Below, piece by piece: positions 1,935 through 63,990 of a stretch of 64,000 nt of DNA; position 1 is the stretch's first letter; every line of letters begins with the position of its first letter. Source of the DNA: a virus. The stretch is from the IMG/VR virus record IMGVR_UViG_3300045988_120820, positions 72,335 through 136,334 of that record, one strand, 5' to 3'. Both the position numbers and the translations under genes were made by a program. The notes beneath the pieces are model-generated. The model was not told the origin of the DNA, searched no databases, and saw nothing but the letters and a program-made list of their open reading frames with translations.

Positions 1935-1961
1935 ATAATACCTCCTTTATTAATTATTAAA

Positions 1962-3308
1962 TTATTTTAGATTTTTTTCAATCAATGGTATATAAAAAGT
2001 GTTATATCCTAATTCATTTGGATGTGTTCCATCTGAATTATTTGTGTATGTGTTTTTATGTTCTGAAATATATGTATTTAAACCACCACAGTCATATACA
2101 TCTATAATTGGTATAGACCATCTTTTACATAATACTTTGGCTCTTTTACTATAAGTATTCTGTAATTCTGTATCCCTAGAACTCATTTTATGAACACAAA
2201 CATAGAATACTGGCACACCTTTCCAATAAGTTTTTAATCTATAACAAATTTCTTCAAAAGCACCAGAAAATGTATTTGTATTTTTTGTTTGGCTATATCC
2301 ATCAGATATTTCACCTAAATCTTTCACAGCGCCATTATTAATATCATTTGTAAATCCATCAAATAATATATAATCTGCTGTTTTTTTATCATTTTTTGCT
2401 TTTTCAATTTGAGTTAATATATCGTTTGTAGAAGTTGTTATTGTAGCACCACCCACAGCATAATCATAACAAATCATATCATTCTTCTTAGCTAATAATT
2501 CGGCATATCCAATACCGTTATTGCCATCTCCAGCACCTATGCTATCACCAAAATTTAAAATAGTCTTACCTTTTAATATGTTATTTAATAAATATATTTC
2601 ATTTTTTACTTCTTCTTTTAAGCTTTCATTTAATTTTAATTTATCTATTATTATTTTATTTTCTTCGTATTCCATTTTTTCATCACCAAAATATAACATT
2701 GAATTATCCGCAAGATTCTTTTCAAAAGAGACTCTGATATATGCTACTTCTTTATTTCCATTATAAGTTATTGACTCTTTTGTAAAATTTGTATTATCAT
2801 AATAATAATCTGTTAATACATTATAAGAATTATCATAAAAACACGCAGTTCTTATAGCTCTTCTTGTCATATTTGTATTCTGTGTTGGGTTATCCATCCT
2901 AGATAGGTTTATTTTATCACCTTTGCTAAACGGTATATATGTAGTCGTTACATAATTTCCATTTTTTATTTCCCCATTAGAATATACATATCCACCAACT
3001 AATTCATCAATATTTAATATATTATTTCCATATTTGGCAAAATTAGTTTTGTATGGAGTTACTTGTTCATCTACTATATTTTCACTTAATATAGTATTTT
3101 TTCCCACTACTGCTACACTTCCACCAGTTATTGCCTCTTTTATATCTTGCCCCATATTAGCCATAGTGAATACCTCATTTTTATCAGCTTTATTATTTAA
3201 ATTTTCTCTTAATGTCTTACTATCTTTACACAATACATTGTCATCAGTAGACCAAAATGAAATGACATTTCCATTCTCATCACCATATTTATTCTTCATA
3301 TACTTCAT
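1962..3308 (-). CDS. tail-fibre-like protein with C-terminal SGNH/GDSL hydrolase domain
   Basis: ILNFGDSIGAGDG (block I GDS) and DGTHPNELGY (block V DxxH). The N-terminus FWSTDDNVLCKDSKTLRENL recurs in other fibre-like ORFs here. Confidence 0.75.
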   Translation of the reverse strand: MKYMKNKYGDENGNVISFWSTDDNVLCKDSKTLRENLNNKADKNEVFTMANMGQDIKEAITGGSVAVVGKNTILSENIVDEQVTPYKTNFAKYGNNILNIDELVGGYVYSNGEIKNGNYVTTTYIPFSKGDKINLSRMDNPTQNTNMTRRAIRTACFYDNSYNVLTDYYYDNTNFTKESITYNGNKEVAYIRVSFEKNLADNSMLYFGDEKMEYEENKIIIDKLKLNESLKEEVKNEIYLLNNILKGKTILNFGDSIGAGDGNNGIGYAELLAKKNDMICYDYAVGGATITTSTNDILTQIEKAKNDKKTADYILFDGFTNDINNGAVKDLGEISDGYSQTKNTNTFSGAFEEICYRLKTYWKGVPVFYVCVHKMSSRDTELQNTYSKRAKVLCKRWSIPIIDVYDCGGLNTYISEHKNTYTNNSDGTHPNELGYNTFYIPLIEKNLK

Positions 3309-3322
3309 TGCTTCATACCTCC

Positions 3323-4564
3323 CTAATTTATATAACTCTCTTCAGAAGAAATTTTATTAAAAGGAATTTTTGTAATAGTTCCTGTTACCCCTCCTGATGT
3401 GTCTTCCTTAACTATTGGTACATTTTCATCATGTATTAAAGTATCTCCATACCAAATTTCATTTAAATAACTTAATTTTATTTGACATAATACATCTTTT
3501 TTTAATATCGGTTGCGTTCTCCATGATATACTCGGAAATATTAAAATTAAGTTATCCACTGTTGGTCTAATAAATAAATTCAATTCCATAAATTCATCCA
3601 CATCTGGTAATACGATAGTCGATAATGTTTCTGTTTTTAAATATTGATATTTATCTCCGGTTAAATTTAATTTATCTTCATCATCGGCGATAACTACATT
3701 TAAATAATCTACTATTTGTTCTTTTTTATTTTTTATTTTATTAAATTTATATAGTTTGAAATAATCTTCATTAAAACAACATAAACCGTATGTATAAGTA
3801 TCTGTATTACTTGTTATATATGCATAATTTCTATTACCATCTAAATATATTATTTCAGTACTAGAATTAAAATCTTTTGCCCAACCTTTTAATATATAAG
3901 AACTTTTACTTAATTCTGATATTATTATAGGTGTATCTTCTGTACCTTTTTTAATTGTATAGCCTTTACTTTCTTCTAATTCTATTAATTTTGTCTTATG
4001 CTGTAATATCTCATCTTTAATTTCGCTAGTTGCTTGTTCTAATTTGTTCAATTTAGAATCGGTAATTACATCTCCAGATATCCAAATAGTTCTATTATAA
4101 GACCCGTCGTCATTGAAAGTTTTTAATTCTTTTCCATATTTAGCAACTTTTGTGTTGTCTATTGCTGTTCCATCAACTGTTCCATAAGATAAATCGTCAT
4201 CGTCCACTTCACATTCTTCAACTGACATTATAAAATAAGGTAATTTTATTCTTCCACCTTTATCGTCATAAATTCTAATATGAACATGATAATTTCCTAT
4301 TTCATCAATTTGATTCATTATTTCATTATTAATTGTAAATAATATTTTATTATCTATAATAGGTACTATATCTGATTTTATTTGTTTTTTTAAAGGACTA
4401 ACTAATACTATATCAGATAATAAATAATTAGAACTTAAATCTAAATAATCAGTATCCATCAATTTGAAATATATATCTATACCTTTATCGTGTTGAAATA
4501 TTGATAGCTGACGATTTAAAATACTCTTTTGTTTATTAATAATTATCGAATATTCTTTTTTCAT
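3323..4564 (-). CDS. BppU-like baseplate upper / receptor-binding scaffold protein
   Basis: N-terminal ~120 aa pattern (LSIFQHDKGIDIYFKL...GNYHVHIRIYDDKGGRIKLPYFIMSVEE) resembles the BppU N-domain. Paralogous N-terminus in 25972..27141. Confidence 0.55.
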   Translation of the reverse strand: MKKEYSIIINKQKSILNRQLSIFQHDKGIDIYFKLMDTDYLDLSSNYLLSDIVLVSPLKKQIKSDIVPIIDNKILFTINNEIMNQIDEIGNYHVHIRIYDDKGGRIKLPYFIMSVEECEVDDDDLSYGTVDGTAIDNTKVAKYGKELKTFNDDGSYNRTIWISGDVITDSKLNKLEQATSEIKDEILQHKTKLIELEESKGYTIKKGTEDTPIIISELSKSSYILKGWAKDFNSSTEIIYLDGNRNYAYITSNTDTYTYGLCCFNEDYFKLYKFNKIKNKKEQIVDYLNVVIADDEDKLNLTGDKYQYLKTETLSTIVLPDVDEFMELNLFIRPTVDNLILIFPSISWRTQPILKKDVLCQIKLSYLNEIWYGDTLIHDENVPIVKEDTSGGVTGTITKIPFNKISSEESYIN

Positions 4565-4578
4565 CTATTTGCTCCTTT

Positions 4579-6105
4579 CTAAACATTTGTATTATTTTCA
4601 AGAGCATCTAATCTTGATTCTATGTTAGATAATCTTGAATTTATATTTCCTATTTTAGAATTTAAATCATTGACTTGATTTTGAACTTCTAAGATTTTAT
4701 CATTTAATCTTTTTTCAATTTGTTGTAAATTAACTTCACTCGTTGCTGAATTAATTAAGTTTATACAGTTTAACATTTGTGAGTTCAATTTATTTCTAGC
4801 TTCCCTATATAATGCTAATCTTATAGTGAATCTTTTTCTTTCATCTTTATTAAAAATTAAATCTTTCATATCTACTTTTATTGAATTAATAAAATCTGTG
4901 TGTTTTGCTTTAAAATCATCAAAATATTCTTTTAATAATTGTTTATTATTATCGCCTAACTTCTCATTATTATAGTAAGATTGATAACTAGCTTCTATTT
5001 TAGAAACGTAATTAACCATTCCATTTGCTAAAGCGTCCAACGAATTATATTGTGCTACCGTTAATTTCCCATCCACGTTTAACAATGAATTAATTATAGG
5101 TAACATGTCATTTGAGTACTTTTGATTTGCATCAAAATATCCTTGAATAGTTTGTTGTTCTTTAGCGAAAGAATTAATCAATGAAGCTTGTAATTCACTC
5201 ATATTACTAGATAAATCATCTATTCTAGCATTTGTATTATAAACTTCATCTGATATAGTACTTGAAGCCCCTAATGTTTTTTCGCCTTCTGAACCTATAG
5301 ACAATATTGTACTACATGAATCTTTAAAAGAAGATAATGTTATCAATATCGTAGTTATATTAGATGTTATGGAAGAAATATCTGCTAATGTTATATTTTC
5401 TCTATCATCCTCTGTGACGATTTTAATTTCTACAATTAAATCAGCCAGCATTTTTTGCAAAGATAGTTGATATTCTAAAAAAGATGTTGTGTCTACATCA
5501 TTAGAATTTTCTGCCATCATATCAATTAAAGCATCACTATATCCTAGCATTTCTTCAAATTTATTATTGATTGTATCTAACCTATAATTGACATCTGCTT
5601 TTTCTGCTGAATTAAATGTCTCATCGGAAAGTCTATCGGTTAATGTGGTTTTTAAATCTATCATTAAAGAATTGGAATTTATTATTGCTGTATTTAATAA
5701 TTCTTTAATTTGTTCAAATGATAAGTTTTCTTGATATTCTTTTGATAAACTTTCTATATTATCTTGAGTGATTTCAAGTTGTTTTTTATAAAATTTATTG
5801 TTTTCAGTGACTCCTTTTAATTTCTCTGCTATCGACTTTTTATTATATCCATCAAATAACATTTCCAATGTATCTGTTGTAGTTGTAACACTAACACCCT
5901 CTATATTTTTAATTATAAATATCAAGTCTTCTTTGTCATCTAATTTATTATTTGAACTTACTAAATCAGAAGTTTCTATCTTCCAATAGATATACTTGTC
6001 TTTTGTATATATATTATTTATAGGAAATATTTGTTCATTATATTTAATGGATAAATCCTTTATGTAAATGTATCCTTGAGTTGGTGCGTTATTAATTATT
6101 GCCAT
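4579..6105 (-). CDS. coiled-coil tail fibre/structural protein
   Basis: Long heptad-rich sequence in the tail module. The likely start is the ATG at 6105, 8 nt after AGGAGG (the track's GVG start at 6114 abuts the SD). Confidence 0.45.
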   Translation of the reverse strand: MAIINNAPTQGYIYIKDLSIKYNEQIFPINNIYTKDKYIYWKIETSDLVSSNNKLDDKEDLIFIIKNIEGVSVTTTTDTLEMLFDGYNKKSIAEKLKGVTENNKFYKKQLEITQDNIESLSKEYQENLSFEQIKELLNTAIINSNSLMIDLKTTLTDRLSDETFNSAEKADVNYRLDTINNKFEEMLGYSDALIDMMAENSNDVDTTSFLEYQLSLQKMLADLIVEIKIVTEDDRENITLADISSITSNITTILITLSSFKDSCSTILSIGSEGEKTLGASSTISDEVYNTNARIDDLSSNMSELQASLINSFAKEQQTIQGYFDANQKYSNDMLPIINSLLNVDGKLTVAQYNSLDALANGMVNYVSKIEASYQSYYNNEKLGDNNKQLLKEYFDDFKAKHTDFINSIKVDMKDLIFNKDERKRFTIRLALYREARNKLNSQMLNCINLINSATSEVNLQQIEKRLNDKILEVQNQVNDLNSKIGNINSRLSNIESRLDALENNTNV

Positions 6106-6151: not shown

Positions 6152-6165
6152 TTATACTAAATTTA

Positions 6166-7395
6166 TTAATTATTTTTAATCTGTAATGTTTCTAATAAAA
6201 TTTCTTCTATATTATCTATATCATAATACCAAATTTCTAATAAATTAATATTACGTTCTTTTGCATATTCCTTTTTTCTACGGTCATGTTCTAATTGACG
6301 TTCAAATTTTTCTTTAGTTTGCCAACCCTCTTGCCATTTTTCATGTTGAATTCCTTGACATTCTATTAATAGATTATAATCTGGTAAATAAAAATCGTAA
6401 GATAAATTACCACCTTTTAATCCAATTAAACCATTATATTCTACTTGAATATTATAGTTTATATTATATTTTTCTAAAATATCTTTAGTTTTTATTTCTA
6501 ACTGTGAAGAATTGCACTCTTTACACACTACACCTGTATCTACTTTATTTAAATTTAATAAACTTCTTTCAAATTCTTGTCCGCATTTTTCACAAATAAA
6601 TTTATATTTTTTGTTACTCATAGGTGAAACTTCAAAAGGTGATTTTTTATTATTTTTACTCCAATATTTAGCTTTTTCGGGATATAAACTACCAAAGCTG
6701 TCTTTCGGATGTACTTTATGATTACTACAATATGAACATCTACAACCATTGTAAAATTTACTTGGAATGGTTTTATACCCACCATAATCATTATGATAAT
6801 CTTTTTCTTGACACAATATCCAAATATCTCTCGCATTATTTTTACTTATTTTAAATGGATTTAAAGTATTTTTGCTACTCCAATATTTCTCTACAGCATC
6901 TTCTCCATAAGTATTTATTAAATATTGTCCAAAACTGTCTTTAGGATGAACTTTTTTACTAGAGCAATAAGGACATCTTGCTTCTTCTGTGAAATGAGCA
7001 GGTGTTATAAAATAACTTCCATGATAATCTTTCTTATCACATTTAATAACCACCTTTTCTTTATAATATTTATTTATTAAATAAGGATTGACTGTATTTT
7101 TCTCCCAATCCCAATATTTATTTAAAGGTTCTTGTAATTCTTGTTGAATATAATAAGCAAAAGAATTTTCATAAGTATTACAGCAGTTAGTACATTTACA
7201 CTTATGTTTTCCTACAAAACCTCCCAATCGTACATCATATTCTTTACCACAATATGGACATTTTACTCTAATATAACTTAAATTTTTAGAATATTTACCG
7301 TCGATAGTAATTTCTCCGCAATGATAACTCCCAATATAAATATATCCATCACCACGATTTTCAACTTTTTCTTTATGCTCTTCATTATAATACAT
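6166..7395 (-). CDS. free-standing homing-endonuclease-like protein: repeated treble-clef zinc ribbons plus C-terminal Vsr/PD-(D/E)XK-like nuclease fold
   Basis: Repeated CPYC...C..C and W.W.KN...P motifs (DUF4379-like). C-terminal YDFYLPDYNLLIECQGIQHE...ERQLEHDRRK resembles DUF559/Vsr-type nucleases. Paralog at 39236..40249. Has its own SD and terminator. Confidence 0.6.
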   Translation of the reverse strand: MYYNEEHKEKVENRGDGYIYIGSYHCGEITIDGKYSKNLSYIRVKCPYCGKEYDVRLGGFVGKHKCKCTNCCNTYENSFAYYIQQELQEPLNKYWDWEKNTVNPYLINKYYKEKVVIKCDKKDYHGSYFITPAHFTEEARCPYCSSKKVHPKDSFGQYLINTYGEDAVEKYWSSKNTLNPFKISKNNARDIWILCQEKDYHNDYGGYKTIPSKFYNGCRCSYCSNHKVHPKDSFGSLYPEKAKYWSKNNKKSPFEVSPMSNKKYKFICEKCGQEFERSLLNLNKVDTGVVCKECNSSQLEIKTKDILEKYNINYNIQVEYNGLIGLKGGNLSYDFYLPDYNLLIECQGIQHEKWQEGWQTKEKFERQLEHDRRKKEYAKERNINLLEIWYYDIDNIEEILLETLQIKNN

Positions 7396-7478
7396 AATAT
7401 CTCCCCTTTATTAATTATTTTTGTTTCCCTTTTTATTCTTTCCAATTGCAACTTAAATTAAACCTTTTGAGAAATTGA

Positions 7479-16194: not shown

Positions 16195-19100
16195 CAATTA
16201 GGTTCGCTACTTCCTAATCAGTTCTCTTATGAACTTCTCTATGTTTCCATAGAAGTTGAGACTATATCTTTACCTTTATTAAAGGCACATACCACTTCCA
16301 CTCGCTTGAGTGTACGAGCATTTGCTCTAGTCGTTGAAGTTTACTTTTATTAATTGCTTAAATTATATTTTTTTGAAAATTCAATACTATTTTTTAATCT
16401 ATTAGGTTTATATTTCATATCAAATTTATAATAAAATTCTTTTGGTATATATTTTAAATAAGGTCTGACTACATCAAAAAATTTTCTAAAATTTGTAGCG
16501 TTAAAATACAATCTATAATATGTTCTATTCTTATATCCTTTGATTCCAGATTTATCAGTATGTATTTTTAAATCTATATCAAACCTTCTCTTAAACATGT
16601 CTTTAATTCTTACATTATCTTTATAACTGAAGCCTTGAGTATTTAGATACCCAAATCTTTTAGCATAATTATTTTTAAACGAAACATGCCAGTTTCCATC
16701 ATCTAAAAACCAAAGTAATAAACCAAAAGAATTTATATTGTTTAAAACTGTGTCTGATAAATATTTTTTACCATTTAATAATGTATTCTTTTTAAATTCT
16801 TCTTTATTAGGAATTTTTATTCTAACATTAGAATAAATATAAATACCAAATGTTGTATTTTTTTCATAATCATATTTAGAATGAGTGTCTATTCCTAAAG
16901 AACTAAACGTATATTCTAACCATTCAACATAAAATCTTTGTTTATTGGTATGGACACAACGAATATACTCTCCATTGATATCACCATCCCCTAACATCAA
17001 TCCATATAAACTATTTATTATTTCTTTCTCATTTTTAATCATGTGAATACTCACTCCTTTTTTTATTTTCGCAATTAACTTAAAGTCTTACCTGCTGATT
17101 GCCCAATCCTTAAACTTTTTAAAACCATCACGCTCATCATTACTGATTACGTTGTGGTATTAAGGCTCTAAGGGGTTTCCAGCAATTCAATATGTTTTCT
17201 AATAATAATTTCTTATTATAGGGGCTATTTATTAACCCAAGACAATATCTTCACCACAAATATCAATTATTTGTTGTTGTAACTCTTTAAATCTTTCTTG
17301 TTGTGCAGAAGTTTTATCTACTGTATCGTATAATTTTTTATATTCATCTCTAATATTGGATAAATTTGTTTTTGCTTTTGTTGAGCTAGTTACTTTATTA
17401 TTTAAATTGGTTATATTTTCTGCATTTTTTTCTAAAGCGTCATTAAGTTTATTAGCCTCGTCTGTAAAATGTTGAATAACTTTACCTATTCCCCATGATA
17501 CGAGCATACCTATACCCATATTTATAACGCCCATAGCTAAATTCATAGCTCCTAAAGCTACTTTTGTTCCTAATGCTTTAGCCTCTACACCTGCTAAAGC
17601 ACTTCTAACTGCTGTTAATCCAGAGGCAAATACTCCAGATGATTGACGAGCCTCTTTAAATGAAGTACCTATCCCTTTTATTACATTCCAAGATTTTCCA
17701 AGATAACTAGCTTGAAATCCTTCTTTTATTGTTGCAAAGAATCCTGGATTAGCAGTCCCAACCATCGTAGCACTAGATGCTTGTCGTGTTGCAGTGGCTT
17801 GTCCTTCTAGTGCAGTAGTTGTACTCAAAGCTTCGGCTTTTAATCTTCTTTCTTGATTAATTAATGCTTCAAATCCACCACTTTGATTAAATTTTATTGA
17901 TTCAAAAATACCAGAAATTGCCCCTGCTATTACGGGTAATCCTACACCCATGTCATCTATATACTTAACAAATTTATCTAACATGTCTAAAGCACTTATA
18001 CCAATGTCTAAAAATCCTTTTGCCGTATTTCCACTTACAGCTGTATTGACTATACTTCTCCATTTTTCTTGGAGTAATGTAAGTTTCCCTTGCACGGAGT
18101 CTATATATCTTGCATTCGTTATCTTCACATAAATTCGCTACATTTACGCAGTTCTCTTATGAACTTCCTATACTTTCATATAGAGTCGAGACTATTTCTT
18201 CACCTTCAGCATTATCTGTTAAGGGCAAAGTATTTCCACTATCAATAGCTTATAGTGTACGGTTTCACAACCTAGTCGTTGAAAGTTTAATCTAATTTAT
18301 TAATTATTTTTTAAATCTTTTAAATGATTTTTAATTATATTAGATTAATACTTGCATGAACACCCATTGTTTAAGATTACTTAGGATTTAACCATATAAT
18401 CATCCTTACGTTTTTTCTACTTTCGTACCTTCACGTTTATTGTTACCAATTACGTTGTGGTGTAAGGCTTTAGGGATTACCTGCTTTTAACTTTGTGTCC
18501 TACGCACATTTCTGTACGTACGGAGAATGTTGTTTCTCTTTCATTGAACTTCCGAAAGTGTCGCCATTTTCGTACTCTTTCATAAATTTTTCTGCTTGAC
18601 TCCAGTTACTCATTATTGCTGTGAAAACGTTCAGTTGGTTTTTCGGTTTGTTATCGTAAAGGCTTTTTATCCTCTACTTCTTATAGTTTCCTATAAGCCC
18701 AGCATACATTTTCACCCTCGTTTAACGTTAGGTATTGATGGTTGCAAACCCATCTCAAGTATTACTATATAATACTGTGGAGGAGGCTCGTGATAGGATT
18801 ATTGCTAACAATATCGCTCACCTATTATGCGTTACGGATGTTCTCTGTTAAGACACCCTCGGTATTACCATATCCGTTAAGGACTTAGGCTCTCTTACCA
18901 CCTTAATCTTTCGATTTAGTTGACCGATACACCCCTCTAATCTACATGATATTTCTACCATGAGTGGCATAATATTTAATTAATAGTTTATATTTTTTAA
19001 ATTTTCTTTCTAAATATATATTTGAATTTTTATAAATATAATCACAAAAAGTTAATACATCTTCTTTTTTATTAGTTACTAATCTAAAGATATCATTGGA

Positions 19101-40323: not shown

Positions 40324-40331
40324 TTTATTAA

Positions 40332-46511: not shown

Positions 46512-46529
46512 ATAATCATTCTCCCTTTA

Positions 46530-46811: not shown

Positions 46812-46833
46812 TAAATTCTCCTCCCTTTATTAA

Positions 46834-47139
46834 TTATTCACCTTGTATTCTTTTAGCAACAGACTTTTTAAGTCTAACCTTAACAACTTCTTTATCTTCA
46901 GTTTTAAAAGGTGTTTCTTTTCCTTCTTTAGTTTTCATCACACCTTCTCTACCTTTTTTAACTTTCTTATCTACTAAGAACATTCCTAGAGAAACAGATT
47001 CATCAACATCTATTTGTTCATATACAGAAGCTACAACATCTTCTAATGCTTTTAACACCTCTCTAGCTTCTGCCTGTGATACTTTTAGACCTCTTTCTTC
47101 TAAAGCTCCTTGTAGTTCTTTTATTACGTTTATTTCCAT
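46834..47139 (-). CDS. HU/IHF-like DNA-binding protein
   Basis: About 100 aa. N-terminal helical KELQGALEERGLKVSQAEAREVLKALEDVV, then a basic beta-arm (KKGREGVMKTKEGKETPFK), as in the HU family. Confidence 0.5.
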   Translation of the reverse strand: MEINVIKELQGALEERGLKVSQAEAREVLKALEDVVASVYEQIDVDESVSLGMFLVDKKVKKGREGVMKTKEGKETPFKTEDKEVVKVRLKKSVAKRIQGE

Positions 47140-48461: not shown

Positions 48462-48483
48462 TTTATATCATCTCCCTTATTTA

Positions 48484-49263
48484 TTAATCGTCTATTTCAA
48501 TTATATAATTGTATAACGCATTATATAATTTTTGTGGTATTTGATTTCTATAATAATCAGCTACCACCTTAATATTTTTCTCTTTATAATACTTGTAAAC
48601 TTGAAATGCCTTTTCTTGACTATTATAATAACCTAGATGTTCTTTTTTTGATTCGCCTGTTCCCATATTAATCATACGACAATGTACTTGATATTTACCG
48701 TTTTCAAGAGGACTTGTCCCTATAACTGAATCACCTCTTGATTTATCACATTTAACAAATAAAATATTAATTTTTTCTGGTACAAACATACAAGCTTCTG
48801 GACTATACATCTTGTTTTTCTTAACCAATATATCCTTGTCGAGACATATTCTCTCTCCTTTAATTTCATAATAGTTATCATAATACCACTTTGCAAAATT
48901 TTGAAAATTATGCCATTCATCACATACAATACAACCTTTATAAGTCGGATATTTTTCTTGATATTTTTCATCATAACATCTTCTTAACATATCGTGCCAT
49001 ATTTGATAACATTTGGTAATTTTACCATTTTCTTTTGTTTTATATTTTCCTTCGCCTAAATAACCTATTCGAAATATACTTTTGTCATATGGTGATTTTA
49101 TTTTACCTTTTTTAAAATCACCATATTGTGCTCCTTTAGTAGTATAATCATGTTTCGGAAAATATACATCTATATTATGACACCCTCTGTATTCAATAAT
49201 AATCATCTCATTACCAAAATTATTAATATTTTTCTCTCCTATCCTATCAATTTTCTTCGCCAT
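48484..49263 (-). CDS. AP2-like DNA-binding / homing-endonuclease-associated family protein (putative)
   Basis: IGYLGEGKY...YQIWHDMLRRCY...CDEWHNFQNFAKWY pattern and C-terminal GYYNSQEKAFQVYKYY (AP2-like). No catalytic motif recognised. Confidence 0.35.
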   Translation of the reverse strand: MAKKIDRIGEKNINNFGNEMIIIEYRGCHNIDVYFPKHDYTTKGAQYGDFKKGKIKSPYDKSIFRIGYLGEGKYKTKENGKITKCYQIWHDMLRRCYDEKYQEKYPTYKGCIVCDEWHNFQNFAKWYYDNYYEIKGERICLDKDILVKKNKMYSPEACMFVPEKINILFVKCDKSRGDSVIGTSPLENGKYQVHCRMINMGTGESKKEHLGYYNSQEKAFQVYKYYKEKNIKVVADYYRNQIPQKLYNALYNYIIEIDD

Positions 49264-49291
49264 ATTCTCTATCTCCCTTTATTAATTATTT

Positions 49292-49450
49292 TTACTTCGC
49301 ATAATTATTTATTTCATCAATTTTATATTCTATCCTTTCTAGTGAGAAAAACAATCTTTGTATACATTCCTTACTCTTGCCTTTTTTAATTGCTTGTTTA
49401 ATTTTCTCCTCTATTTTTATACTCCTGTCAATATTGGCTACTCTATTCAC
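49292..49450 (-). CDS. small coiled-coil protein (52 aa, hand-found)
   Basis: GTG at 49450, 10 nt after GGAGGTG. MNRVANIDRSIKIEEKIKQAIKKGKSKECIQRLFFSLERIEYKIDEINNYAK. Confidence 0.35.
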   Translation of the reverse strand: MNRVANIDRSIKIEEKIKQAIKKGKSKECIQRLFFSLERIEYKIDEINNYAK

Positions 49451-49960: not shown

Positions 49961-50240
49961 GACGAATAATTACAATTCTTTATCCCCTAGTCGTTCATAA
50001 TAATTAAAAACCAAATTATTACTCACTCCTTCCCCTTATCTCAATAATGGGAATTATTTTATTAATTATTTTTAATACTCTCTTATCTTATTCTTCTAAC
50101 CATTTTAAGAATAAATTTCTATCATCACTTTCTAAATAATCACTCAATCTTATCACTCCTACATCTTAGTTTCTAGTGTAATATTAATATATAACTAACT
50201 TAGGTTTAATATAGTTTTTTTATATTATTTCTCATTTTAG

Positions 50241-57494: not shown

Positions 57495-57546
57495 ATAAAC
57501 ATAATAAACAACAAAAATAATTAATAAAAAAATTAATAAAAAGTTG

Positions 57547-57575: not shown

Positions 57576-57693
57576 TATAATATAAGTATTAGACAAGGGA
57601 GAACGCCCAATAGTTCATTAAGTAACAAAATATAATTCATGGGATTAGCTACTCACTAGCTAAAAATAATTAATAAAAATCCAAAAAAAGTAT

Positions 57694-57723: not shown

Positions 57724-57850
57724 TGAATTAATAATCAATCGACAACCTTGTATAACATAAGTAATAAAATCAAATCTAAAAAAACTTAAATGTTTTGATA
57801 TCCTCTATCAAGTGTTTAAGGAAATAATTAATAAAAAGGAGATAAGAAAA

Positions 57851-58207: not shown

Positions 58208-58251
58208 TTAGCATAATAAAAAAAATAATTAATAAATAGGGGGAGTAAAAA

Positions 58252-58695: not shown

Positions 58696-58748
58696 TCCTT
58701 CCAGCTCAATGCTATTATTTATGATAATGAAAACAATTAATAAAATTG

Positions 58749-59196: not shown

Positions 59197-59245
59197 TATT
59201 AAGTAATGATGGCAAAAATAATTAATAAATTTTTTAAAATAATTA

Positions 59246-59657: not shown

Positions 59658-59718
59658 AGGGTAAAATCCCTCTAGCTCAATACTATTAAAATGATAACAA
59701 AAATAATTAATAAAATTA

Positions 59719-59782: not shown

Positions 59783-60280
59783 ATGAAATATTTTGAAAGT
59801 TGTAAGAGTAAAGAAGACGCAAAAAAATTATATAAAAAATTAGCTTTCCAATATCATCCCGATAAAGGCGGGGATGTTGAAATAATGAAAGCCATCAATA
59901 ATGAATTTGATGACTTTATGAAGAACTTTAGAGAAGAAAAAAAAGATAGTAAAAAAGAATATGAATTTACGGCAACTACATACAGAAAACTTATAGAACA
60001 ATTAATAAAATTTGACGATATAACCATTGATGTAGTAGGCTGTTTTATATGGATAACTGGCAACACTTATCCAATAAAAGAAGAATTAAAACAATTAGGA
60101 TTTAGATTTAGTAAAAATAAAAAATCATGGTATATTGCGCCAGAAGAATATATGAAAAATAGAGTCAATTATAAGAAAAAATACAGTATGAATGAAATAA
60201 AAAATAAATATGGATGTACTTCTATAAAATCAAAAGGAGGATACAAGAAGGAAAAAGATAATATAATAATGATAGGATAA
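59783..60280 (+). CDS. J-domain (DnaJ-like) protein
   Basis: AKKLYKKLAFQYHPDKGGD contains the HPD motif and helix II/III pattern. Confidence 0.8.
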   Translation: MKYFESCKSKEDAKKLYKKLAFQYHPDKGGDVEIMKAINNEFDDFMKNFREEKKDSKKEYEFTATTYRKLIEQLIKFDDITIDVVGCFIWITGNTYPIKEELKQLGFRFSKNKKSWYIAPEEYMKNRVNYKKKYSMNEIKNKYGCTSIKSKGGYKKEKDNIIMIG

Positions 60281-60355
60281 ATAATTAATAATACTGCTTA
60301 TAAGAACATAAGCAGTATAGCTCAAAATGATTATATAAATTATTAATAAAAACTA

Positions 60356-60385: not shown

Positions 60386-60426
60386 ATAATCATGATAAAA
60401 ATAATTAATAAATAGGAGTGGTAAAT

Positions 60427-61613: not shown

Positions 61614-61910
61614 ATGCAAATAATAATAAATCATATTGATAGAGTTAGAAAATATGTAAAAAATGATAGTAAAAATAGAATGATGATAGCTATTGATTAT
61701 AACGAAGAAAATAATAATTGGGAACGCTATCAAATATATTATAATAGAAATATGGAATTTTCCGAACCGTTTAACTATAAAGTATTACATACTTTAGAAC
61801 AAGTAAGAGAAGAAATGGACGATATAAGGGAATTTTTTGGTGAAATAGATTATATATGTTACTTTGATAAGAATAATGAATATAAAGAAATAAATATAAA
61901 ACAAAAATAA
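61614..61910 (+). CDS. hypothetical early protein
   Basis: GGAAGGTG SD. The stop lies inside the junction motif. Confidence 0.55.
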   Translation: MQIIINHIDRVRKYVKNDSKNRMMIAIDYNEENNNWERYQIYYNRNMEFSEPFNYKVLHTLEQVREEMDDIREFFGEIDYICYFDKNNEYKEINIKQK

Positions 61911-61922
61911 TTAATAAAGTTG

Positions 61923-61952: not shown

Positions 61953-62026
61953 ATAAATATAAAAGGTTTACTGGTTTATCCTTAAAACCAGTAATAAAAA
62001 TAATTAATAAAATTATTAAAAAGCTC

Positions 62027-62614: not shown

Positions 62615-62717
62615 ATGATACCAAAAATAATTAATAATACTGTCTATATTTTTATAGGTGGTATTGCTCAATACTGCAAGAATGATAGTAAATAATATTA
62701 AAGGGGATGAATATATT

Positions 62718-63512
62718 ATGAATGAATTACAAAAGACAAATAAGGATGATATAAGAATATCATCAAGAGAAGTGGCTGAAATGATGGGAATAGAACATAA
62801 AAATTTAATAAGAAAAATAGATAGTATCAACAAGGATTTTGACAGCGCAAAATTGAGCTACCAAAAATATTGGACGAAAAGCACTTTTAAGAATAGGGGC
62901 AAAACATATAGAGAATATCAAATTACAAAATTAGGTTGTGAATTTCTAGCACATAAAAGCACTGGAACAAAAGGTAATTTATTTACTGCTAGATATATGG
63001 ATAGATTTCAAATGATGGAAGAATATATTAATAATCAAATACCACAATTGTCACTAGAAGACCAAGCCGTATTAAATATAATAAATGCAAATGATAAACT
63101 TGATAAAGCGTTAGCTATAAAGGATTATAAAGATATCATAGAAAAGCCTTTAATTGAAGAGATAGACGAATTAAAAGAACTTAATAATAAATTTAAAGTT
63201 TTCATATCTAAAGATGGATTAATAGATGTTGATACATTCAGTAAAGTTTTAGCTATTAAAGAATTGGGAAGAAATAATATGTACAAGTGGTTTAGAAATA
63301 ACAAATACTTAATGAAGAATAACCGTCCTTATCAACATTATATAAATCAAGAATTATTCAAATTAAAAAACATAGGATATAAAACAAATTATATAGGAGA
63401 ACAAATACCTCTATTTAAAACATACATAACTAAAAAAGGATTAGGATACTTTTTAAATAAGTTCGTTGAAGACGGTTATATAACTTTTACAAATGATACC
63501 AAAAATAATTAA
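62718..63512 (+). CDS. Rha-family regulatory protein fused to KilAC/ANT antirepressor-type C-terminal domain
   Basis: ISSREVAEMMGIEHKNLIRKID (Rha N-domain) and ...FSKVLAIKELGRNNMYKWFRNNKYLMKNNRPYQHYINQELFKLK (KilAC-like). The ATG at 62718 follows AGGGGATG. Confidence 0.75.
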   Translation: MNELQKTNKDDIRISSREVAEMMGIEHKNLIRKIDSINKDFDSAKLSYQKYWTKSTFKNRGKTYREYQITKLGCEFLAHKSTGTKGNLFTARYMDRFQMMEEYINNQIPQLSLEDQAVLNIINANDKLDKALAIKDYKDIIEKPLIEEIDELKELNNKFKVFISKDGLIDVDTFSKVLAIKELGRNNMYKWFRNNKYLMKNNRPYQHYINQELFKLKNIGYKTNYIGEQIPLFKTYITKKGLGYFLNKFVEDGYITFTNDTKNN

Positions 63513-63524
63513 TAAATATTTATA

Positions 63525-63552
63525 GGCTGGAGTTTTATCCAGTCTTTTTTAT
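63525..63552 (+). terminator. rho-independent terminator
   Basis: GGCTGGA/TCCAGTC stem followed by TTTTTTATT. Confidence 0.75.
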
Positions 63553-63891
63553 TGCCTATAAAATGATAATGATTATCATTAACATTAAATATCAACTCCA
63601 GGAGCTTTTTTATAAAAACTCAATAAAAGCGACCTCTTAAATGCCATTCTAAGGCGTTTTAAAATGATTAAGGTATAAATACCTTGTGGACTATCGAATT
63701 CCTTTATAATGGATTATACAGTATATTTTATATTTTTATATATAATTGATAATGCTTTTCATTTATATATTTATTCTCAATTGGAAATGATACTAAAATA
63801 TATTAAATTATAAAATGATAATAATAATCATAACTATAAAAATTAATTTATATATAAAATAATATATTTTTAAAAAAGTTTATATTTATTA

Positions 63892-63920
63892 TTGATTTTT
63901 AAAATTAAATATGATACTAT
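63892..63920 (+). promoter_or_regulatory. promoter candidate
   Basis: TTGATT, 17-nt spacer, TGaTACTAT. Confidence 0.45.
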
Positions 63921-63990
63921 ATAACTATAGTAATGAATAAAAAGTTTTAAAAAGATTATAAAAATAATTAATAAAATTATTAAAAAGCTC

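What the first reader, a model, noticed from the sequence alone, without database searches (positions are those of the whole stretch)
1947..63974. Strand-co-oriented 11-15-nt junction motif AAAATAATTAATAAA present about 30 times, directly 5' of SD sequences or -35 boxes
I count 13 perfect copies of the core ATAATTAATAA on the + strand, all in the rightward early arm (57.5-64 kb). I count 16 perfect copies on the - strand, all in the leftward arm (0-51 kb). There are at least 7 one-mismatch variants, and I saw no copy in the opposite orientation to local transcription.
- By my rough estimate, chance expectation for an A/T 11-mer in DNA this AT-rich is only a few copies over both strands.
- In the late arm the motif abuts the SD (AAAATAATTAATAAAGGAGG-N-ATG, e.g. 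1947, 7408, 23260, 31519, 46527, 46827, 49279). It often supplies the stop codon of the upstream gene.
- In the early arm it sits either just before an SD (57824, 58225, 60401) or 3-10 nt upstream of a TTGACA box (57517, 59703, 61907, 62000, 63964).
- It also marks the ORF-insertion loops of the introns (18297, 19768, 20203).
- This resembles the start-associated sequences of cluster K mycobacteriophages, or the boundary sequences proposed to mediate module exchange.

Possible roles are a translation-initiation enhancer, an RNA-processing site, an UP element, a multi-frame stop 'insulator', or a recombination hotspot.
Basis: seen in the sequence. Interest (0 to 1): 0.75.

Follow-up and report, generated by a model that had tools for sequence, protein, structure and literature searches.

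The report
Genome-wide repressor-site-like motif in SPβ-like phage
A 15-base A/T-rich "punctuation" sequence sits in front of about a third of the genes in this uncultured SPβ-like gut phage, always pointing the way the genes are read. It is most likely the docking site of the phage's master repressor, multiplied roughly ten-fold compared with the one phage (Bacillus SPβ) where such a site has been tested.

Summary
The core ATAATTAATAA occurs 30 times (17 on −, 13 on +) against 2.2 expected, and all 30 copies are co-oriented with local genes. Twenty-eight are intergenic.

The window is an uncultured, ~27% GC, ~135-kb SPβ-like phage-plasmid. The motif starts the intergenic region, often overlapping the upstream stop codon. 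It then abuts whatever comes next: an SD (0–4 nt), a TTGACA box (about 5 or about 16 nt), a second promoter-like class, or a terminator.

Bacillus SPβ has the same architecture. Its SPBRE element abuts SDs or lies 7 nt upstream of −35 boxes, co-oriented, and is the experimentally shown operator of the master repressor MrpR/YopR.

- Relatives of the window phage encode remote MrpR homologues (hhalign 98%; precomputed Pfam MrpR_C_cat).
- Lineages with diverged MrpR-like proteins carry different but related amplified motifs in the same positions.
- A C. difficile relative lacks the motif altogether.

Best reading (about 0.55): an SPBRE-type operator, hugely amplified and extended into the late structural operons, resembling mycobacteriophage stoperators. 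Binding is untested, and no MrpR-like gene lies inside the window. Mosaic junctions and homing-endonuclease insertions coincide with the motif.

The parts
1946..1960 (-). Motif copy TTAATAATTAATAAA. It abuts the SD of the endolysin gene (165-1934).
6089..6099 (-). Exact core inside coding sequence, at the N-terminus of tail protein 4579-6105 (MAIINN). Probably incidental, or fixed as coding sequence.
   Evidence: same coding context in relatives
6162..6176 (-). Motif copy overlapping the stop codon of the free-standing HNH homing-endonuclease gene (6166-7395). A terminator hairpin follows it.
7407..7421 (-). Motif copy abutting the SD of the same HNH gene, so the endonuclease gene is flanked by the motif on both sides.
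18296..18310 (-). Motif copy inside the intervening sequence of the split tape-measure gene.
   Evidence: no Rfam intron hit
19767..19781 (-). Motif copy upstream of the SD of ORF 18942-19748, which lies within the tape-measure intervening sequence.
20202..20216 (-). Motif copy 70 nt after the stop of the tape-measure N-terminal ORF (20284-22320).
23259..23273 (-). Motif copy abutting the SD of gene 22778-23242.
30977..30991 (-). Motif copy directly after the stop of 30992-31501. An intrinsic terminator follows it.
31518..31532 (-). Motif copy TAAATAATTAATAAA. It overlaps the stop of 31530-32270 and abuts the SD of 30992-31501.
34878..34892 (-). Motif copy AAAATAATTAATAAT, followed by a terminator-like hairpin, upstream of 34198-34818.
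36325..36339 (-). One-mismatch variant AAAACAATTAATAAA upstream of the SD of 35413-36306.
36873..36887 (-). One-mismatch variant AAAATAATTAACAAA. It overlaps the stop of 36881-38134 and lies upstream of the SD of 36346-36855.
40269..40283 (-). Two-mismatch variant ATAGTAATTAATAAA upstream of the SD of the HNH gene 39236-40249.
40324..40338 (-). Motif copy overlapping the stop of 40332-40508. The CATAGGTGAT…TGTTAATA promoter-like element follows 1 nt later.
45785..45799 (-). Exact 15-mer inside the exonuclease ORF (45134-46273), conserved as coding sequence in relatives.
46526..46540 (-). Motif copy ATAATAATTAATAAA. It overlaps the stop of 46530-46811 and abuts the SD of 46320-46511.
46826..46840 (-). 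Motif copy TGAATAATTAATAAA. It overlaps the stop of the HU-like gene (46834-47139) and abuts the next SD. This is a mosaic junction: the downstream gene differs between relatives.
48477..48488 (-). Partial motif copy ATTAATAAATAA at the 3' end of the inserted HNH gene (48484-49263), abutting the SD of the sigma-like gene.
49278..49292 (-). Motif copy abutting the SD of HNH gene 48484-49263. In relatives the same motif abuts the SD of the sigma-like gene directly.
50058..50072 (-). Motif copy in the 576-nt gap upstream of 49452-49715, followed by a hairpin.
57514..57528 (+). First early-arm copy, downstream of promoter-like 57465-57494. A degenerate second copy (57526-57540) follows, then TTGACA at 57547.
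57663..57677 (+). Motif copy 16 nt upstream of TTGACA (57694), with the A-tract AAAAAAAGT in between.
57821..57835 (+). Motif copy GAAATAATTAATAAA abutting the SD of 57851-58207.
58222..58236 (+). Motif copy abutting the SD of 58252-58695.
58730..58744 (+). One-mismatch variant AAAACAATTAATAAA, 4 nt upstream of the consensus promoter at 58749-58777.
59215..59229 (+). Motif copy 16 nt upstream of the consensus promoter at 59246-59274.
59700..59714 (+). Motif copy 4-5 nt upstream of the consensus promoter at 59719-59747.
60278..60292 (+). Motif copy TAAATAATTAATAAT at the stop of 59783-60280, followed by a 12-bp hairpin.
60398..60412 (+). Motif copy in the 5' UTR. It lies 12 nt after the -10 of promoter 60356-60385 and abuts the SD of 60427-60657.
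61904..61918 (+). Motif copy overlapping the stop of 61614-61910, 4-5 nt upstream of TTGACA (61923).
61997..62011 (+). Motif copy 15-16 nt upstream of the consensus promoter at 62027-62056.
62624..62638 (+). Motif copy AAAATAATTAATAAT after the stop of 62387-62614, followed by a hairpin and then the SD of the Ant-like gene.
63502..63516 (+). Motif copy overlapping the stop of the Ant/Rha-like gene (62658-63512), followed by the intrinsic terminator 63524-63545.
63961..63975 (+). Motif copy 15-16 nt upstream of a TTGACA box at the right edge of the window.

Best explanation
The motif is a DNA-level operator. It is the counterpart, in this clostridial-type SPβ-like phage-plasmid lineage, of the SPBRE element of Bacillus phage SPβ, and it is probably bound by the lineage's MrpR/YopR-like master repressor, a catalytically dead protein with a tyrosine-recombinase fold.

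**Proposed mechanism (inferred, not shown)**
- The repressor binds the asymmetric 11-15-bp site in one orientation.
- At early promoters the site lies just upstream of the -35 box, or at or after +1. Occupancy there would block or modulate initiation.
- Between cistrons the site abuts the SD. Occupancy there would act as a polar roadblock to RNA polymerase coming from upstream, as L5 stoperators do.
- The outcome would be silencing of the roughly 135-kb episome gene by gene during lysogeny.

**Shown here**
- The motif is extremely over-represented, and every copy points with the local genes.
- Its positions follow clear rules.
- SPβ has the same architecture.
- Relatives encode MrpR homologues.
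- The motif sequence changes between lineages in step with divergence of the MrpR-like protein.

**Inferred**
- That this particular protein binds this motif.
- That binding represses.

A likely by-product is that about a hundred identical co-oriented 15-20-bp junctions (motif plus SD) serve as preferred points of gene exchange and homing-endonuclease gene insertion.
For: **1. The element is discrete and sharply defined.** There are 30 exact copies against 2.2 expected, all co-oriented with the genes. One-mismatch forms are near chance. This pattern suggests a specific reader rather than a compositional preference.

**2. The phage is SPβ-like.**
- Gene order is sigma-like, HU-like, YonG-like, terminase, portal on the left, and a rightward early arm with an Ant-like gene.
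- YonG_N and YonD_N Pfam families occur in relatives.
- The YonG homologue hits SPBc2, phi3T and phiCD211.

**3. SPβ has a tested precedent.** Its repeated element SPBRE is the ChAP-seq, EMSA and reporter-verified site of the master repressor MrpR (PMC10516654).

**4. SPBRE has the same anatomy as the motif.** I located the SPBRE copies in SPBc2.
- All are co-oriented with the downstream gene.
- yopM and yopV: SPBRE, 2 nt, SD.
- aimR and yonX: SPBRE, 7 nt, -35 box.
- yonX as a whole: SPBRE, promoter, SPBRE, SD, ATG.
- In the motif family (306 context-distinct instances), the core is followed by an SD after 0-4 nt in 136 of the 147 SD-class instances, and by TTGACA after 4-6 nt (35) or 13-19 nt (18). 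Locus L129 has motif, promoter, motif, SD.

**5. Relatives encode MrpR homologues of 290-300 aa.**
- A custom HMM gives E from 1e-11 to 1e-8.
- hhalign gives probability 98.1% and E 6e-14 over 219 columns.
- All database homologues carry precomputed PF22823 MrpR_C_cat and sit on 131-141-kb contigs.
- A motif copy lies about 100 nt upstream of each MrpR-like gene.
- L259 has 26 exact cores in 20.9 kb, all on the + strand.

**6. The motif varies between lineages while keeping the same positions**.
- MrpR-like at about 50-60% identity: same core.
- About 37% (L262): AATAAATATAAAATTAATAAA.
- About 40% (L264): GTAYAAAATAAATAAA.
- L129: TATATAATTAATAA.
- SPβ: CAAATACAAAWAATATGTAT.
- C. difficile phage pCD1602_4: only 4 chance-level copies of the core.

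**7. Some copies point to a DNA-level role.** They lie between an intrinsic terminator and the next promoter, where little transcript is expected. The gap to the -35 box has two peaks about one helical turn apart.

**8. The motif is not a host-wide feature.** 120 genome loci that matched the motif plus SD each hold a single sporadic copy.
Against: - No binding or expression data exist for this lineage.
- No MrpR-like gene lies inside the window. Its presence in this genome is inferred from synteny with L256-L259 and from close mosaic relatives.
- My own Pfam and NCBIfam scans of the L020 protein found no MrpR family, so the homology is remote at 19% identity.
- Apart from the shared AAATAAT, the motif does not resemble SPBRE in sequence.
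- The copy number is about ten times that of SPβ. The motif also extends between late structural genes, where SPβ has none: 0 credible SPBRE copies in 6-56 kb of SPBc2.
- The very tight abutment to the SD (0-4 nt) would also fit a translation- or RNA-level role.
- Covariation with MrpR-like divergence is confounded with overall genome divergence, so any co-evolving reader would show the same pattern.
- pCD1602_4 has an MrpR-like gene, but I could not find an amplified element in it.
Confidence: 0.55

Rival explanations
1. The motif is a cis-acting expression enhancer read by host machinery. On DNA it would act as an UP element, with A-tracts contacting the alpha-CTD of RNA polymerase upstream of the -35 box. 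On RNA it would be an unstructured A/U-rich leader whose 3' AAA extends SD pairing (AAAGGAGG against the 16S 3' end). No phage-encoded reader would be needed.
For: - With a 5-nt gap, the motif's AATAAA falls at about -46 to -41, where the proximal UP subsite lies.
- With a gap of about 16 nt, a canonical AAAAAARNR tract fills the proximal site and the motif takes the distal one.
- About half of all copies abut an SD within 0-4 nt.
- In L129 the core begins at the predicted +1 of three promoters, which would give a motif-plus-SD leader.
- The UP-element consensus and the 16S tail sequence are taken from general knowledge, not tested here.
Against: - Host-read enhancers are normally degenerate. 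Here the element is nearly all-or-none: 30 exact copies, with one-mismatch forms at chance.
- The motif changes as a block between phage lineages and is absent from the related C. difficile phage.
- It is not enriched in the bacterial genome loci sampled.
- It also sits directly in front of terminators and at the 3' ends of ORFs, where neither kind of enhancement applies.
Confidence: 0.12
2. The motif acts on RNA. It would be a recognition site in the polycistronic transcripts for a phage-encoded RNA-binding protein or endoribonuclease. Cleavage or binding just 5' of the SD would set the stability or translation of each cistron. A candidate is the beta-CASP/RMMBL nuclease encoded by relatives.
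For: - Co-orientation with transcription is strict.
- The motif is always on the sense strand immediately 5' of the SD.
- Relatives encode a 628-aa beta-CASP plus RMMBL ('RNA specificity') protein. Homologues occur in at least three family genomes, and none was found in the C. difficile phage by tblastn.
Against: - The gap to the -35 box is constrained and two-peaked, which an RNA site would not require.
- Some copies sit between a terminator and the next promoter, again not needed for an RNA role.
- The SPβ precedent is DNA binding.
- Nothing links the beta-CASP protein to the motif, and such proteins can equally be DNases.
- Stop codons of upstream genes often lie inside the motif, so cleavage within it would produce non-stop mRNAs.
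Confidence: 0.1
3. The motif is primarily a recombination linker or cassette junction. Identical co-oriented 15-20-bp sequences at gene boundaries would be kept because they allow in-register exchange of genes between co-infecting relatives and insertion of mobile ORFs. The exchange could be helped by a recombinase.
For: - Two clean mosaic junctions fall exactly at the motif plus SD: upstream of the sigma-like gene, and downstream of the HU-like gene.
- An HNH homing-endonuclease gene is inserted between the motif and the sigma-like gene, leaving a partial motif copy at its 3' end.
- HNH genes are flanked by the motif on both sides and typically end '…ITD* AAAATAATTAATAA'.
- 11 of 39 intergenic homology breakpoints lie within 8 nt of a motif, against 9% expected (p about 5e-4).
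- A Xer-like tyrosine recombinase gene lies next to the MrpR-like gene in several lineages.
Against: - The breakpoint enrichment is only about 3-fold. It is also expected for any element that sits exactly at gene boundaries, because selection keeps junctions there.
- 15 bp is short for homologous recombination.
- The site is asymmetric, without the inverted arms that tyrosine recombinases use.
- The box I arginine appears to be replaced in the MrpR-like proteins (read from the alignment, not tested further).
- A linker role does not explain the fixed spacing to -35 boxes, or why SPβ's equivalent element is a repressor site.
Confidence: 0.08
4. The motif is a phage-specific promoter, in the manner of the T4 late promoter TATAAATA or T7-type promoters. 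It would be recognised by host polymerase carrying the phage sigma-like factor (47277-48461) or one of the small early-arm sigma proteins. Its ATAAT/TATAAT would serve as the -10 element, with transcription starting at the A/G just before the SD.
For: - The motif contains a -10-like AATAAT, and in L129 a perfect TATAAT.
- The phage encodes a sigma-like protein at the position that yonO holds in SPβ.
- No conserved -35 element lies upstream of the motif, which resembles T4 late promoters.
Against: - Transcripts would begin at or inside the SD, leaving essentially no leader.
- Several copies are followed within 5-12 nt by intrinsic terminators.
- Motif density is highest in the early arm, which already has consensus sigma-A promoters.
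- The gap in front of the first late gene, the HU-like gene at 47140-47276, has no copy.
- A separate two-box promoter-like class, CATAGGTAAT-N14-TGTTAATA, is a better candidate for phage-directed transcription.
Confidence: 0.04

Closest known systems
SPBRE (SPβ repeated element), the operator of the master repressor MrpR/YopR of Bacillus subtilis phage SPβ (PMC10516654)
   Same: - Same phage superfamily, judged by synteny and YonG/YonD homologues.
- A 15-20-bp A/T-rich asymmetric element in intergenic regions, co-oriented with the downstream gene.
- Sits either 2 nt upstream of an SD or 7 nt upstream of a -35 box, and in places on both sides of one promoter.
- Relatives of the window phage encode remote homologues of the SPBRE-binding protein.
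- A copy lies upstream of the repressor gene or its operon.
   Different: - The sequence is different; only AAATAAT is shared.
- SPβ has about 10 sites, all at early or regulatory promoters, and none in 50 kb of its late and lysogeny-conversion arm.
- Here there are 30 exact copies in 64 kb, including 17 in the late arm, and 21-26 per 15-21 kb of early arm, which is roughly one per gene.
- Binding has not been tested in this lineage.
- The MrpR-like protein is only about 19% identical to MrpR.
Stoperators of cluster A mycobacteriophages (L5 gp71 and the TipsytheTRex repressor; PMC9283540)
   Same: - More than 20 asymmetric 13-15-bp sites spread over both arms of the genome.
- Sites lie in short intergenic spaces, often overlapping start or stop codons.
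- Orientation correlates strictly with transcription direction.
- The site sequence differs between lineages that have different repressors.
- Density is similar, about 0.5 per kb over the window.
   Different: - The host phylum and phage family are unrelated.
- The L5-type repressor (an HTH plus a 'stoperator domain') is not homologous to MrpR-like proteins.
- No HTH repressor was found in the window.
- The motif here is purely A/T.
- A block to elongation has not been tested.
Start-associated sequences (SAS) of cluster K mycobacteriophages
   Same: A conserved short motif repeated in front of many genes, close to the translation start and co-oriented with the genes.
   Different: - SAS include the SD-like GGAG and are tied to start codons.
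- This motif ends before the SD.
- It also precedes -35 boxes, a second promoter class and terminators.
- It often overlaps the upstream stop codon.
PeSL cassettes (early promoter plus stem-loop) of T4-type phages, and the 'boundary/linker sequences' of lambdoid phages (general knowledge)
   Same: Repeated regulatory sequences at gene boundaries that coincide with mosaic junctions and flank small, variable early genes.
   Different: - PeSLs are about 60-70-bp units made of a promoter and a hairpin.
- Here the repeated unit is only 15 bp, and the promoters, SDs and hairpins next to it are not themselves repeats.
UP elements of bacterial sigma-70/sigma-A promoters (general knowledge)
   Same: A/T-rich sequence at about -40 to -60, with the AAA at about -43 to -41 when the gap is 5 nt. 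It also occurs in a distal position one helical turn further upstream.
   Different: - UP elements are degenerate and occur only at promoters.
- Only about a fifth of the copies are at promoters.
- The motif is lineage-specific and nearly invariant.

Membership tests
SPBRE/MrpR operator system (SPβ-like phages) | The phage belongs to the SPβ-like group. | tested here: met
   - The YonG homologue hits SPBc2, phi3T and phiCD211.
- YonG_N, YonD_N, YopX and YonV_C Pfam families occur in relatives.
- Gene order matches the yonO-yonN…yonG-yonF-yonE region of SPBc2.
SPBRE/MrpR operator system (SPβ-like phages) | A 15-20-bp repeated element in intergenic or promoter regions, co-oriented with the downstream gene, abutting an SD or lying a few nt upstream of a -35 box. 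| tested here: met
   SPBc2 copies were mapped. Motif spacing statistics are, and examples are.
SPBRE/MrpR operator system (SPβ-like phages) | An MrpR (YopR)-family protein is encoded by the same genome. | tested here: inconclusive
   - Not present in the 64-kb window.
- Present in mosaic relatives that carry the motif: L001, L015, L020, L022, L053, L259, L260 and L263.
- Support for homology: HMM E from 1e-11 to 1e-8, hhalign 98.1%, and precomputed PF22823.
- My own Pfam and NCBIfam scans were negative.
- Near-identical genomes (L256-L258) were readable only about 10 kb past the window's right end, and no hit was found there.
SPBRE/MrpR operator system (SPβ-like phages) | The element is physically bound by the repressor and mediates repression. 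| not testable with these tools
   Needs EMSA, DAP-seq, ChAP-seq and reporter assays. The only indirect support is that the motif sequence changes along with MrpR-like divergence.
SPBRE/MrpR operator system (SPβ-like phages) | Sequence resembles the SPBRE consensus CAAATACAAAWAATATGTAT. | tested here: not met
   Only the heptamer AAATAAT is shared. Given the A/T richness, this is not evidence of common descent.
SPBRE/MrpR operator system (SPβ-like phages) | About 10 copies, confined to early or regulatory promoters. | tested here: not met
   - 30 exact copies in 64 kb, 17 of them in the late arm.
- 21-26 copies per 15-21 kb of early arm.
- SPBc2 has none in 6-56 kb.
Stoperators (cluster A mycobacteriophages) | More than 20 asymmetric 13-bp-class sites across the genome in short intergenic spaces, oriented with transcription. 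| tested here: met
   The definition is taken from PMC9283540.
Stoperators (cluster A mycobacteriophages) | A repressor of the L5 gp71 type (N-terminal HTH plus stoperator domain). | tested here: not met
   - No HTH or repressor family was found among the window proteins scanned.
- The candidate reader is instead a protein with a tyrosine-recombinase fold.
- gp71 itself was not used as a query.
Stoperators (cluster A mycobacteriophages) | An orientation-dependent block of transcription elongation. | not testable with these tools
   Needs reporter or read-through assays.
Start-associated sequences (cluster K) | The motif includes the SD and is positioned 3-8 bp from start codons only. | tested here: not met
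   The motif ends before the SD. About half of the copies precede promoters, terminators or other elements.
UP element | An A/T-rich element at -40 to -60 of sigma-A promoters. | tested here: inconclusive
   The position fits for 55 of 306 instances, with two spacing peaks at 4-6 and 13-19 nt. The remaining copies are not at promoters. Alpha-CTD contact cannot be tested here.
Three-frame translational stop 'insulator' | Stop codons in all three frames. | tested here: not met
   TAA occurs in two frames only. Upstream stops fall at -5, +1 and +5 relative to the core in 128 of 247 cases, and the third frame is open (also read directly from the sequence).

The most novel reading that the evidence does not exclude
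The motif is not only an operator but also the junction of a phage gene-cassette system. Its roughly 100 identical, co-oriented copies would be sites where a protein with a tyrosine-recombinase fold catalyses or guides excision, insertion and exchange of single genes. The candidates are the MrpR-like protein, or the Xer-like recombinase encoded next to it in several lineages. The mobile genes would include the HNH homing-endonuclease ORFs that the motif flanks. This would be an integron-like shuffling mechanism inside a virus.
Probability: 0.07. Interest if true: 0.85.

Novelty: new variant of a known kind. Interest (0 to 1): 0.6.

Why it matters
**If the reading is right**
- A domesticated tyrosine-recombinase-type repressor would police an entire ~135-kb episomal prophage through about a hundred oriented sites, roughly one per early gene.
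- That would be a Firmicute counterpart of mycobacteriophage stoperators, arrived at independently with an unrelated protein.
- The SPβ MrpR/SPBRE paradigm would extend from a handful of promoters to genome-wide silencing.

**What it offers in practice**
- A simple sequence signature for recognising immunity groups among uncultured SPβ-like gut phages, because each lineage has its own motif variant.
- A set of directly testable protein-site pairs for studying how recombinase folds evolve new DNA specificities.

**Wider relevance**
- The coincidence of the motif with mosaic junctions and homing-endonuclease insertions is relevant to how modular exchange in phages is targeted to gene boundaries.

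Tried and rejected
**Searches that found nothing useful**
1. Close relatives in the GenBank phage and PLSDB plasmid collections: none, apart from 90-bp hits to C. difficile phages.
2. Host identification through genome contigs: the sigma-like protein gave no confirmed relative. The motif-plus-SD pattern gave 120 loci, each with one sporadic copy and none forming a cluster. The host remains unknown.
3. Rfam, over the whole window and then at E ≤ 0.1 over 16-20.4 kb: no family, so the introns are not confirmed this way.
4. A literature search for the motif string: no relevant paper.
5. A search for a repressor or HTH protein among window proteins with Pfam and PHROGs: none.

**MrpR homology**
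6. Direct tblastn of SPβ YopR against all loci gave no hit. The YopQ-like gene in relatives is followed by a Dcm methyltransferase, not by YopR. Only a family HMM and profile-profile comparison recovered the homologues.
7. Pfam and NCBIfam scans of the L020 MrpR-like protein were negative.

**The C. difficile phage pCD1602_4**
8. The search for an equivalent amplified element failed. The top k-mers were coding tandem repeats, starts of paralogous genes, or -10 boxes followed by a leader.

**Hypotheses considered and set aside**
9. A fixed distance between an upstream -10 box and the motif (motif at +1): seen at three promoters of L129 but not as a general rule.
10. Late promoter: see the rival explanations.
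11. Three-frame stop: the motif holds stops in only two frames.
12. Chi/KOPS-type polarity signals, suggested by the FtsK-like gene and by the motif's strand switching where the GC skew changes sign: such signals are not confined to intergenic DNA and have no fixed spacing to SDs or -35 boxes.
13. An antisense RNA or rRNA partner: no complementary copy exists in the window.

Full report

Yes. ATAATTAATAA occurs 30 times in the window, against 2.23 ± 1.41 (maximum 6) in dinucleotide-preserving shuffles.
- Seventeen copies are on the − strand, all at or below 50.07 kb. Thirteen are on the + strand, all at or above 57.5 kb.
- These are the leftward and rightward gene arms that diverge from a non-coding region at 55.4-57.5 kb. 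All 30 copies therefore point with the local genes.
- The extended form AAAATAATTAATAAA gives 55 hits at up to 2 mismatches, against 13.9 expected.
- It is the most over-represented k-mer of the window: AATTAATAAA occurs 40 times in sense and once in antisense.
- One-mismatch versions of the 11-mer are near chance, at 44 against about 38.5. The element is therefore almost all-or-none.
- Two copies (6089 and 45786) are inside ORFs and are conserved there as coding sequence. The rest are intergenic or overlap the last codons of the upstream ORF.

**2. What is the window?**

It is a ~27% GC siphovirus-type genome. No close relative exists in the GenBank phage or PLSDB plasmid collections.

Genes on the − strand include:
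- an endolysin, tail proteins, and a tape-measure gene split by intervening sequences that hold LAGLIDADG and HNH ORFs;
- a portal gene, a split large-terminase gene, and an SbcD-like exonuclease;
- an HU-like protein and a 394-aa sigma-like protein;
- several free-standing HNH homing-endonuclease genes.

A Rep3-type initiator gene, an FtsK-like gene and DnaA boxes lie in or next to the non-coding region. The + arm is a run of small genes with consensus TTGACA-17/18-TATAAT promoters and an Ant/Rha-like gene.

Homologues of the sigma-like protein fall into identity tiers of 91-98%, about 70%, about 48% (C. difficile phiCD211-like phages) and 35-40%. Most sit on 131-142-kb contigs.

The group is SPβ-like:
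- YonG_N, YonD_N, YopX and YonV_C Pfam families occur in relatives.
- The YonG homologue hits SPBc2, phi3T and phiCD211.
- The gene order mirrors yonO-yonN…yonG-yonF-yonE of SPBc2, with the early arm diverging in the same way.

**3. Anatomy of the motif.**

The motif opens the intergenic region. In 306 context-distinct instances from the window and related loci (near-identical genomes are not fully independent), 247 have an upstream ORF of at least 50 codons ending nearby.
- In 128 of those 247, the stop codon lies at −5, +1 or +5 relative to the core. These are the TAA triplets in or just before the motif.
- TAA is present in two frames only.

Downstream, the motif abuts whatever comes next:
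- an SD, with a 0-4 nt gap in 136 of the 147 SD-class instances;
- a TTGACA box, with a gap of 4-6 nt (35 instances) or 13-19 nt (18), and none at 9-12 nt;
- a second promoter-like class, CATAGGTAAT-N14-TGTTAATA (14 instances);
- a terminator or other hairpin.

In the distal promoter class, the proximal position is filled by an AAAAAARNR-type A-tract or by a degenerate motif copy.

In the − arm of the window, about 18 of 31 gaps of at least 17 nt hold the motif (up to 2 mismatches), and several more hold eroded copies. In the early arm of near-identical genomes there are 21-25 exact copies per 15-18 kb, roughly one per gene, all on the gene strand.

**4. Distribution among relatives.**

- *Relatives that have it.* The same motif is dense and co-oriented in the ~70% tier. 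It is present at orthologous junctions there.
- *A related C. difficile phage that lacks it.* It is absent from C. difficile phage pCD1602_4, which has 4 copies spread over both strands.
- *Bacterial genomes.* In the 120 loci returned by the genome-contig scan it occurs only as single sporadic copies.
- *A distant relative with an altered flank.* A distant relative (L129; sigma-like protein 37-43% identical) keeps the 11-nt core but has a different 5' flank, TATATAATTAATAA. It shows the same contexts, including motif-promoter-motif-SD.

The element is therefore a lineage-specific invention that is conserved over deep divergence. It is not a general property of A/T-rich hosts.

**5. The key comparison: SPβ.**

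SPβ has a repeated intergenic element, SPBRE. ChAP-seq, EMSA and lacZ fusions showed it to be the site of the master repressor MrpR (YopR), a protein with a tyrosine-recombinase fold and no recombinase activity. [quoted passage not shown]

I located the copies in SPBc2, with consensus CAAATACAAAWAATATGTAT.
- Every copy is co-oriented with the downstream gene.
- At yopM and yopV the element is followed after 2 nt by the SD.
- At aimR and yonX it lies 7 nt upstream of the −35 box.
- yonX as a whole reads SPBRE-promoter-SPBRE-SD-ATG.

This is the anatomy of the motif studied here. The differences:
- The sequences are unrelated beyond a shared AAATAAT.
- SPBc2 has 7 copies in 56-92 kb and none in 6-56 kb, the late arm. 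The window has 17 copies in its late arm.

**6. A candidate reader.**

- An HMM of the Bacillus MrpR family hits 290-300-aa ORFs in five motif-rich related loci (E from 1e-11 to 1e-8) and one ORF in the C. difficile phage.
- Profile-profile comparison gives 98.1% probability and E 6e-14 over 219 columns.
- The best PDB match is a 325-aa 'core-binding domain' protein, E 7e-5.
- All 37 full-length database homologues carry a precomputed PF22823 (MrpR_C_cat) hit and occur on 131-141-kb contigs.
- My own Pfam and NCBIfam scans did not detect the family, so the homology is remote.
- The gene lies in the early arm, after a Rha/Ant-like gene, with a motif copy about 100 nt upstream.
- It is not in the window. 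Synteny of L259 with L256-L258 (SprT-like genes, a Xer-like recombinase) suggests it lies some 15-20 kb beyond the right end.

**7. Covariation.**

Loci were ranked by the identity of their MrpR-like protein to the L022 protein used as query. The amplified, co-oriented motif changes with that divergence:

| MrpR-like identity to the L022 protein | Locus | Amplified motif | Copies |
|---|---|---|---|
| ~60% | L259 | same 15-mer as the window | 26 exact cores, all + |
| ~48% | L263 | same core, looser 5' flank | 14, all + |
| ~37% | L262 | AATAAATATAAAATTAATAAA | no exact core; AATTAATAAA ×17, all + |
| ~40% | L264 | GTAYAAAATAAATAAA | AAATAAATAA ×15, 2 in antisense |

In each lineage the variant abuts SDs or lies 5-8 or 17-18 nt upstream of TTGACA. 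A family of sites that changes as a block within each genome is what a co-evolving protein-site pair predicts, as with stoperators and immunity groups (PMC9283540). It is hard to reconcile with a host-read enhancer. The caveat is that divergence of the MrpR-like protein is confounded with overall genome divergence.

**8. Recombination signal.**

- *Mosaic junction upstream of the sigma-like gene.* Relatives have motif-SD-ATG there. The gene upstream of the motif is either a methyltransferase-like gene or an unrelated gene, and homology breaks exactly at the motif.
- *HNH insertion in the window.* In the window an HNH gene lies between the motif and the sigma-like gene, leaving a partial motif copy at its 3' end.
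- *Mosaic junction downstream of the HU-like gene.* The motif plus SD is identical in all relatives, but two unrelated genes follow it.
- *Breakpoint statistics.* Of 39 intergenic homology breakpoints, 11 lie within 8 nt of a motif, against 9% expected (p about 5e-4).

I read this as a consequence of many identical junctions, and of selection for breaks at gene boundaries, rather than as the primary function. It cannot be excluded as a function.

**9. Verdict.**

The best-supported explanation is an SPBRE-type operator for an MrpR-like master repressor. It is amplified about ten-fold and extended between cistrons of early and late operons, where it would act like a stoperator. My confidence is about 0.55.

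| Status | Items |
|---|---|
| Shown | statistics, strand rule, positional rules, parallel with SPβ, homologue in relatives, lineage-specific variants |
| Inferred | binding by that protein, repression, roadblock action |

Rival explanations:

| Rival | Confidence |
|---|---|
| Host-read UP/leader enhancer | 0.12 |
| RNA-level site (relatives encode a β-CASP/RMMBL nuclease) | 0.10 |
| Recombination linker as primary role | 0.08 |
| Phage-specific promoter | 0.04 |

The promoter rival is weak for three reasons:
- Several copies are followed within 5-12 nt by terminators.
- Density is highest in the early arm.
- The gap in front of the first late gene lacks a copy.

I rate the finding as a new variant of a known kind. 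It is worth bench work because the protein-site pairs are explicit and lineage-specific.

Noticed in passing
window 55450-57460 (with Rep3 gene 51978-52934 +, FtsK-like 53557-54687 −): A 2-kb stretch has no ORF of at least 50 aa. It holds three DnaA-box consensus sequences TTATCCACA (about 56036, 56060 and 56222) and several local direct repeats, for example ATATAAATTATTTTTTATG twice near 57085 and 57140. The two gene arms diverge here and the GC skew changes sign. It is probably a plasmid-type replication origin of an episomal prophage.
   Followed up: partly
window − strand, starting at 51678, 51542, 51253, 49865, 40322: A second, two-box promoter-like motif, (T)TCATAGGTAAT-N14-TGTTAATA, followed about 20-40 nt later by an SD. 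It recurs in relatives, often directly after the 15-mer. Relatives also encode two small Sigma70_r2 proteins (185 and 183 aa; L259:16093-16650 and 18124-18675) in the early arm. Either these or the 394-aa sigma-like protein may read this class.
   Followed up: partly
window 47277-48461 (−): A 394-aa protein assigned to the PHROG 'sigma factor' family, with only a weak region-4/LuxR-type HTH. It occupies the position that the single-subunit RNA polymerase gene yonO holds in SPβ, directly upstream of the HU-like (yonN-like) gene.
   Followed up: partly
window 12232-22320, 42008-44147, 34819-35412 (− strand): - The tape-measure gene is split: 20284-22320 and 12232-16197, with ORFs 16350-17054 (LAGLIDADG), 17232-18128, 18942-19748 and 19803-19970 in between.
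- The large terminase is split: 43632-44147 and 42008-43282, with a 349-nt gap.
- A 594-nt structured-looking gap follows 35413-36306.
- The terminase gap and the 18129-18941 gap share TTAGAGGGGTGTATCGGT.

These are probably ORF-bearing and ORF-less introns, but Rfam reports nothing.
   Followed up: partly
window 48484-49263 (−) versus L119-L125: An HNH homing-endonuclease gene lies between the motif and the sigma-like gene in the window only. Relatives have the motif directly in front of the sigma-like gene. The window holds three free-standing HNH genes (6166-7395, 39236-40249, 48484-49263).
   Followed up: yes
window 57547-57665 and 61923-61999 (+): Two consensus-like promoters drive only about 70-90 nt of non-coding sequence before the next motif and promoter. 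Each stretch ends in a hairpin (TAGCTActcacTAGCTA; ACTGGTTTatccttAAAACCAGT) with no U-run. They may be small RNAs or decoy/tandem promoters.
   Followed up: no
L020:1150-1210; also L001, L015, L022, L053 upstream of the MrpR-like gene: A conserved inverted repeat, TAGTTGTC…GACAACTA, brackets the putative -10 region just upstream of the MrpR-like gene. It could be a separate (auto)regulatory operator or an RNA hairpin.
   Followed up: no
L083:1585-3468, L252-L254: Family members encode a 628-aa protein with a zinc ribbon, a metallo-β-lactamase domain, a β-CASP domain and an RMMBL ('RNA specificity') domain. It is only 37-38% identical between members. No match was found in the C. difficile relative by tblastn.
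   Followed up: partly
L262:8880-10888, L264:8418-10355, L263:8017-10879, L259:3806-4684: A Xer-like tyrosine recombinase gene (Pfam Phage_integrase) lies immediately or closely upstream of the MrpR-like gene in several lineages. This pairs an apparently intact recombinase with a degenerate one.
   Followed up: no
L130:1550-1700 and L131:7620-7760: In a motif-less relative, five or more tandem or inverted copies of TGAAAACACATTG sit just upstream of an actin-like (ALP_N/ParM-type) partition gene. This is probably a parC-like centromere.
   Followed up: no
window early arm, e.g. 59200-59214, 59686-59699, 62610-62623, 63488-63501: Several early-arm motif copies are preceded by a recurrent AATGATA(NN) sequence. 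The same heptamer also occurs inside the spacers of nearby promoters (…aaATGATAgcaTATAAT). I have no explanation for it.
   Followed up: no
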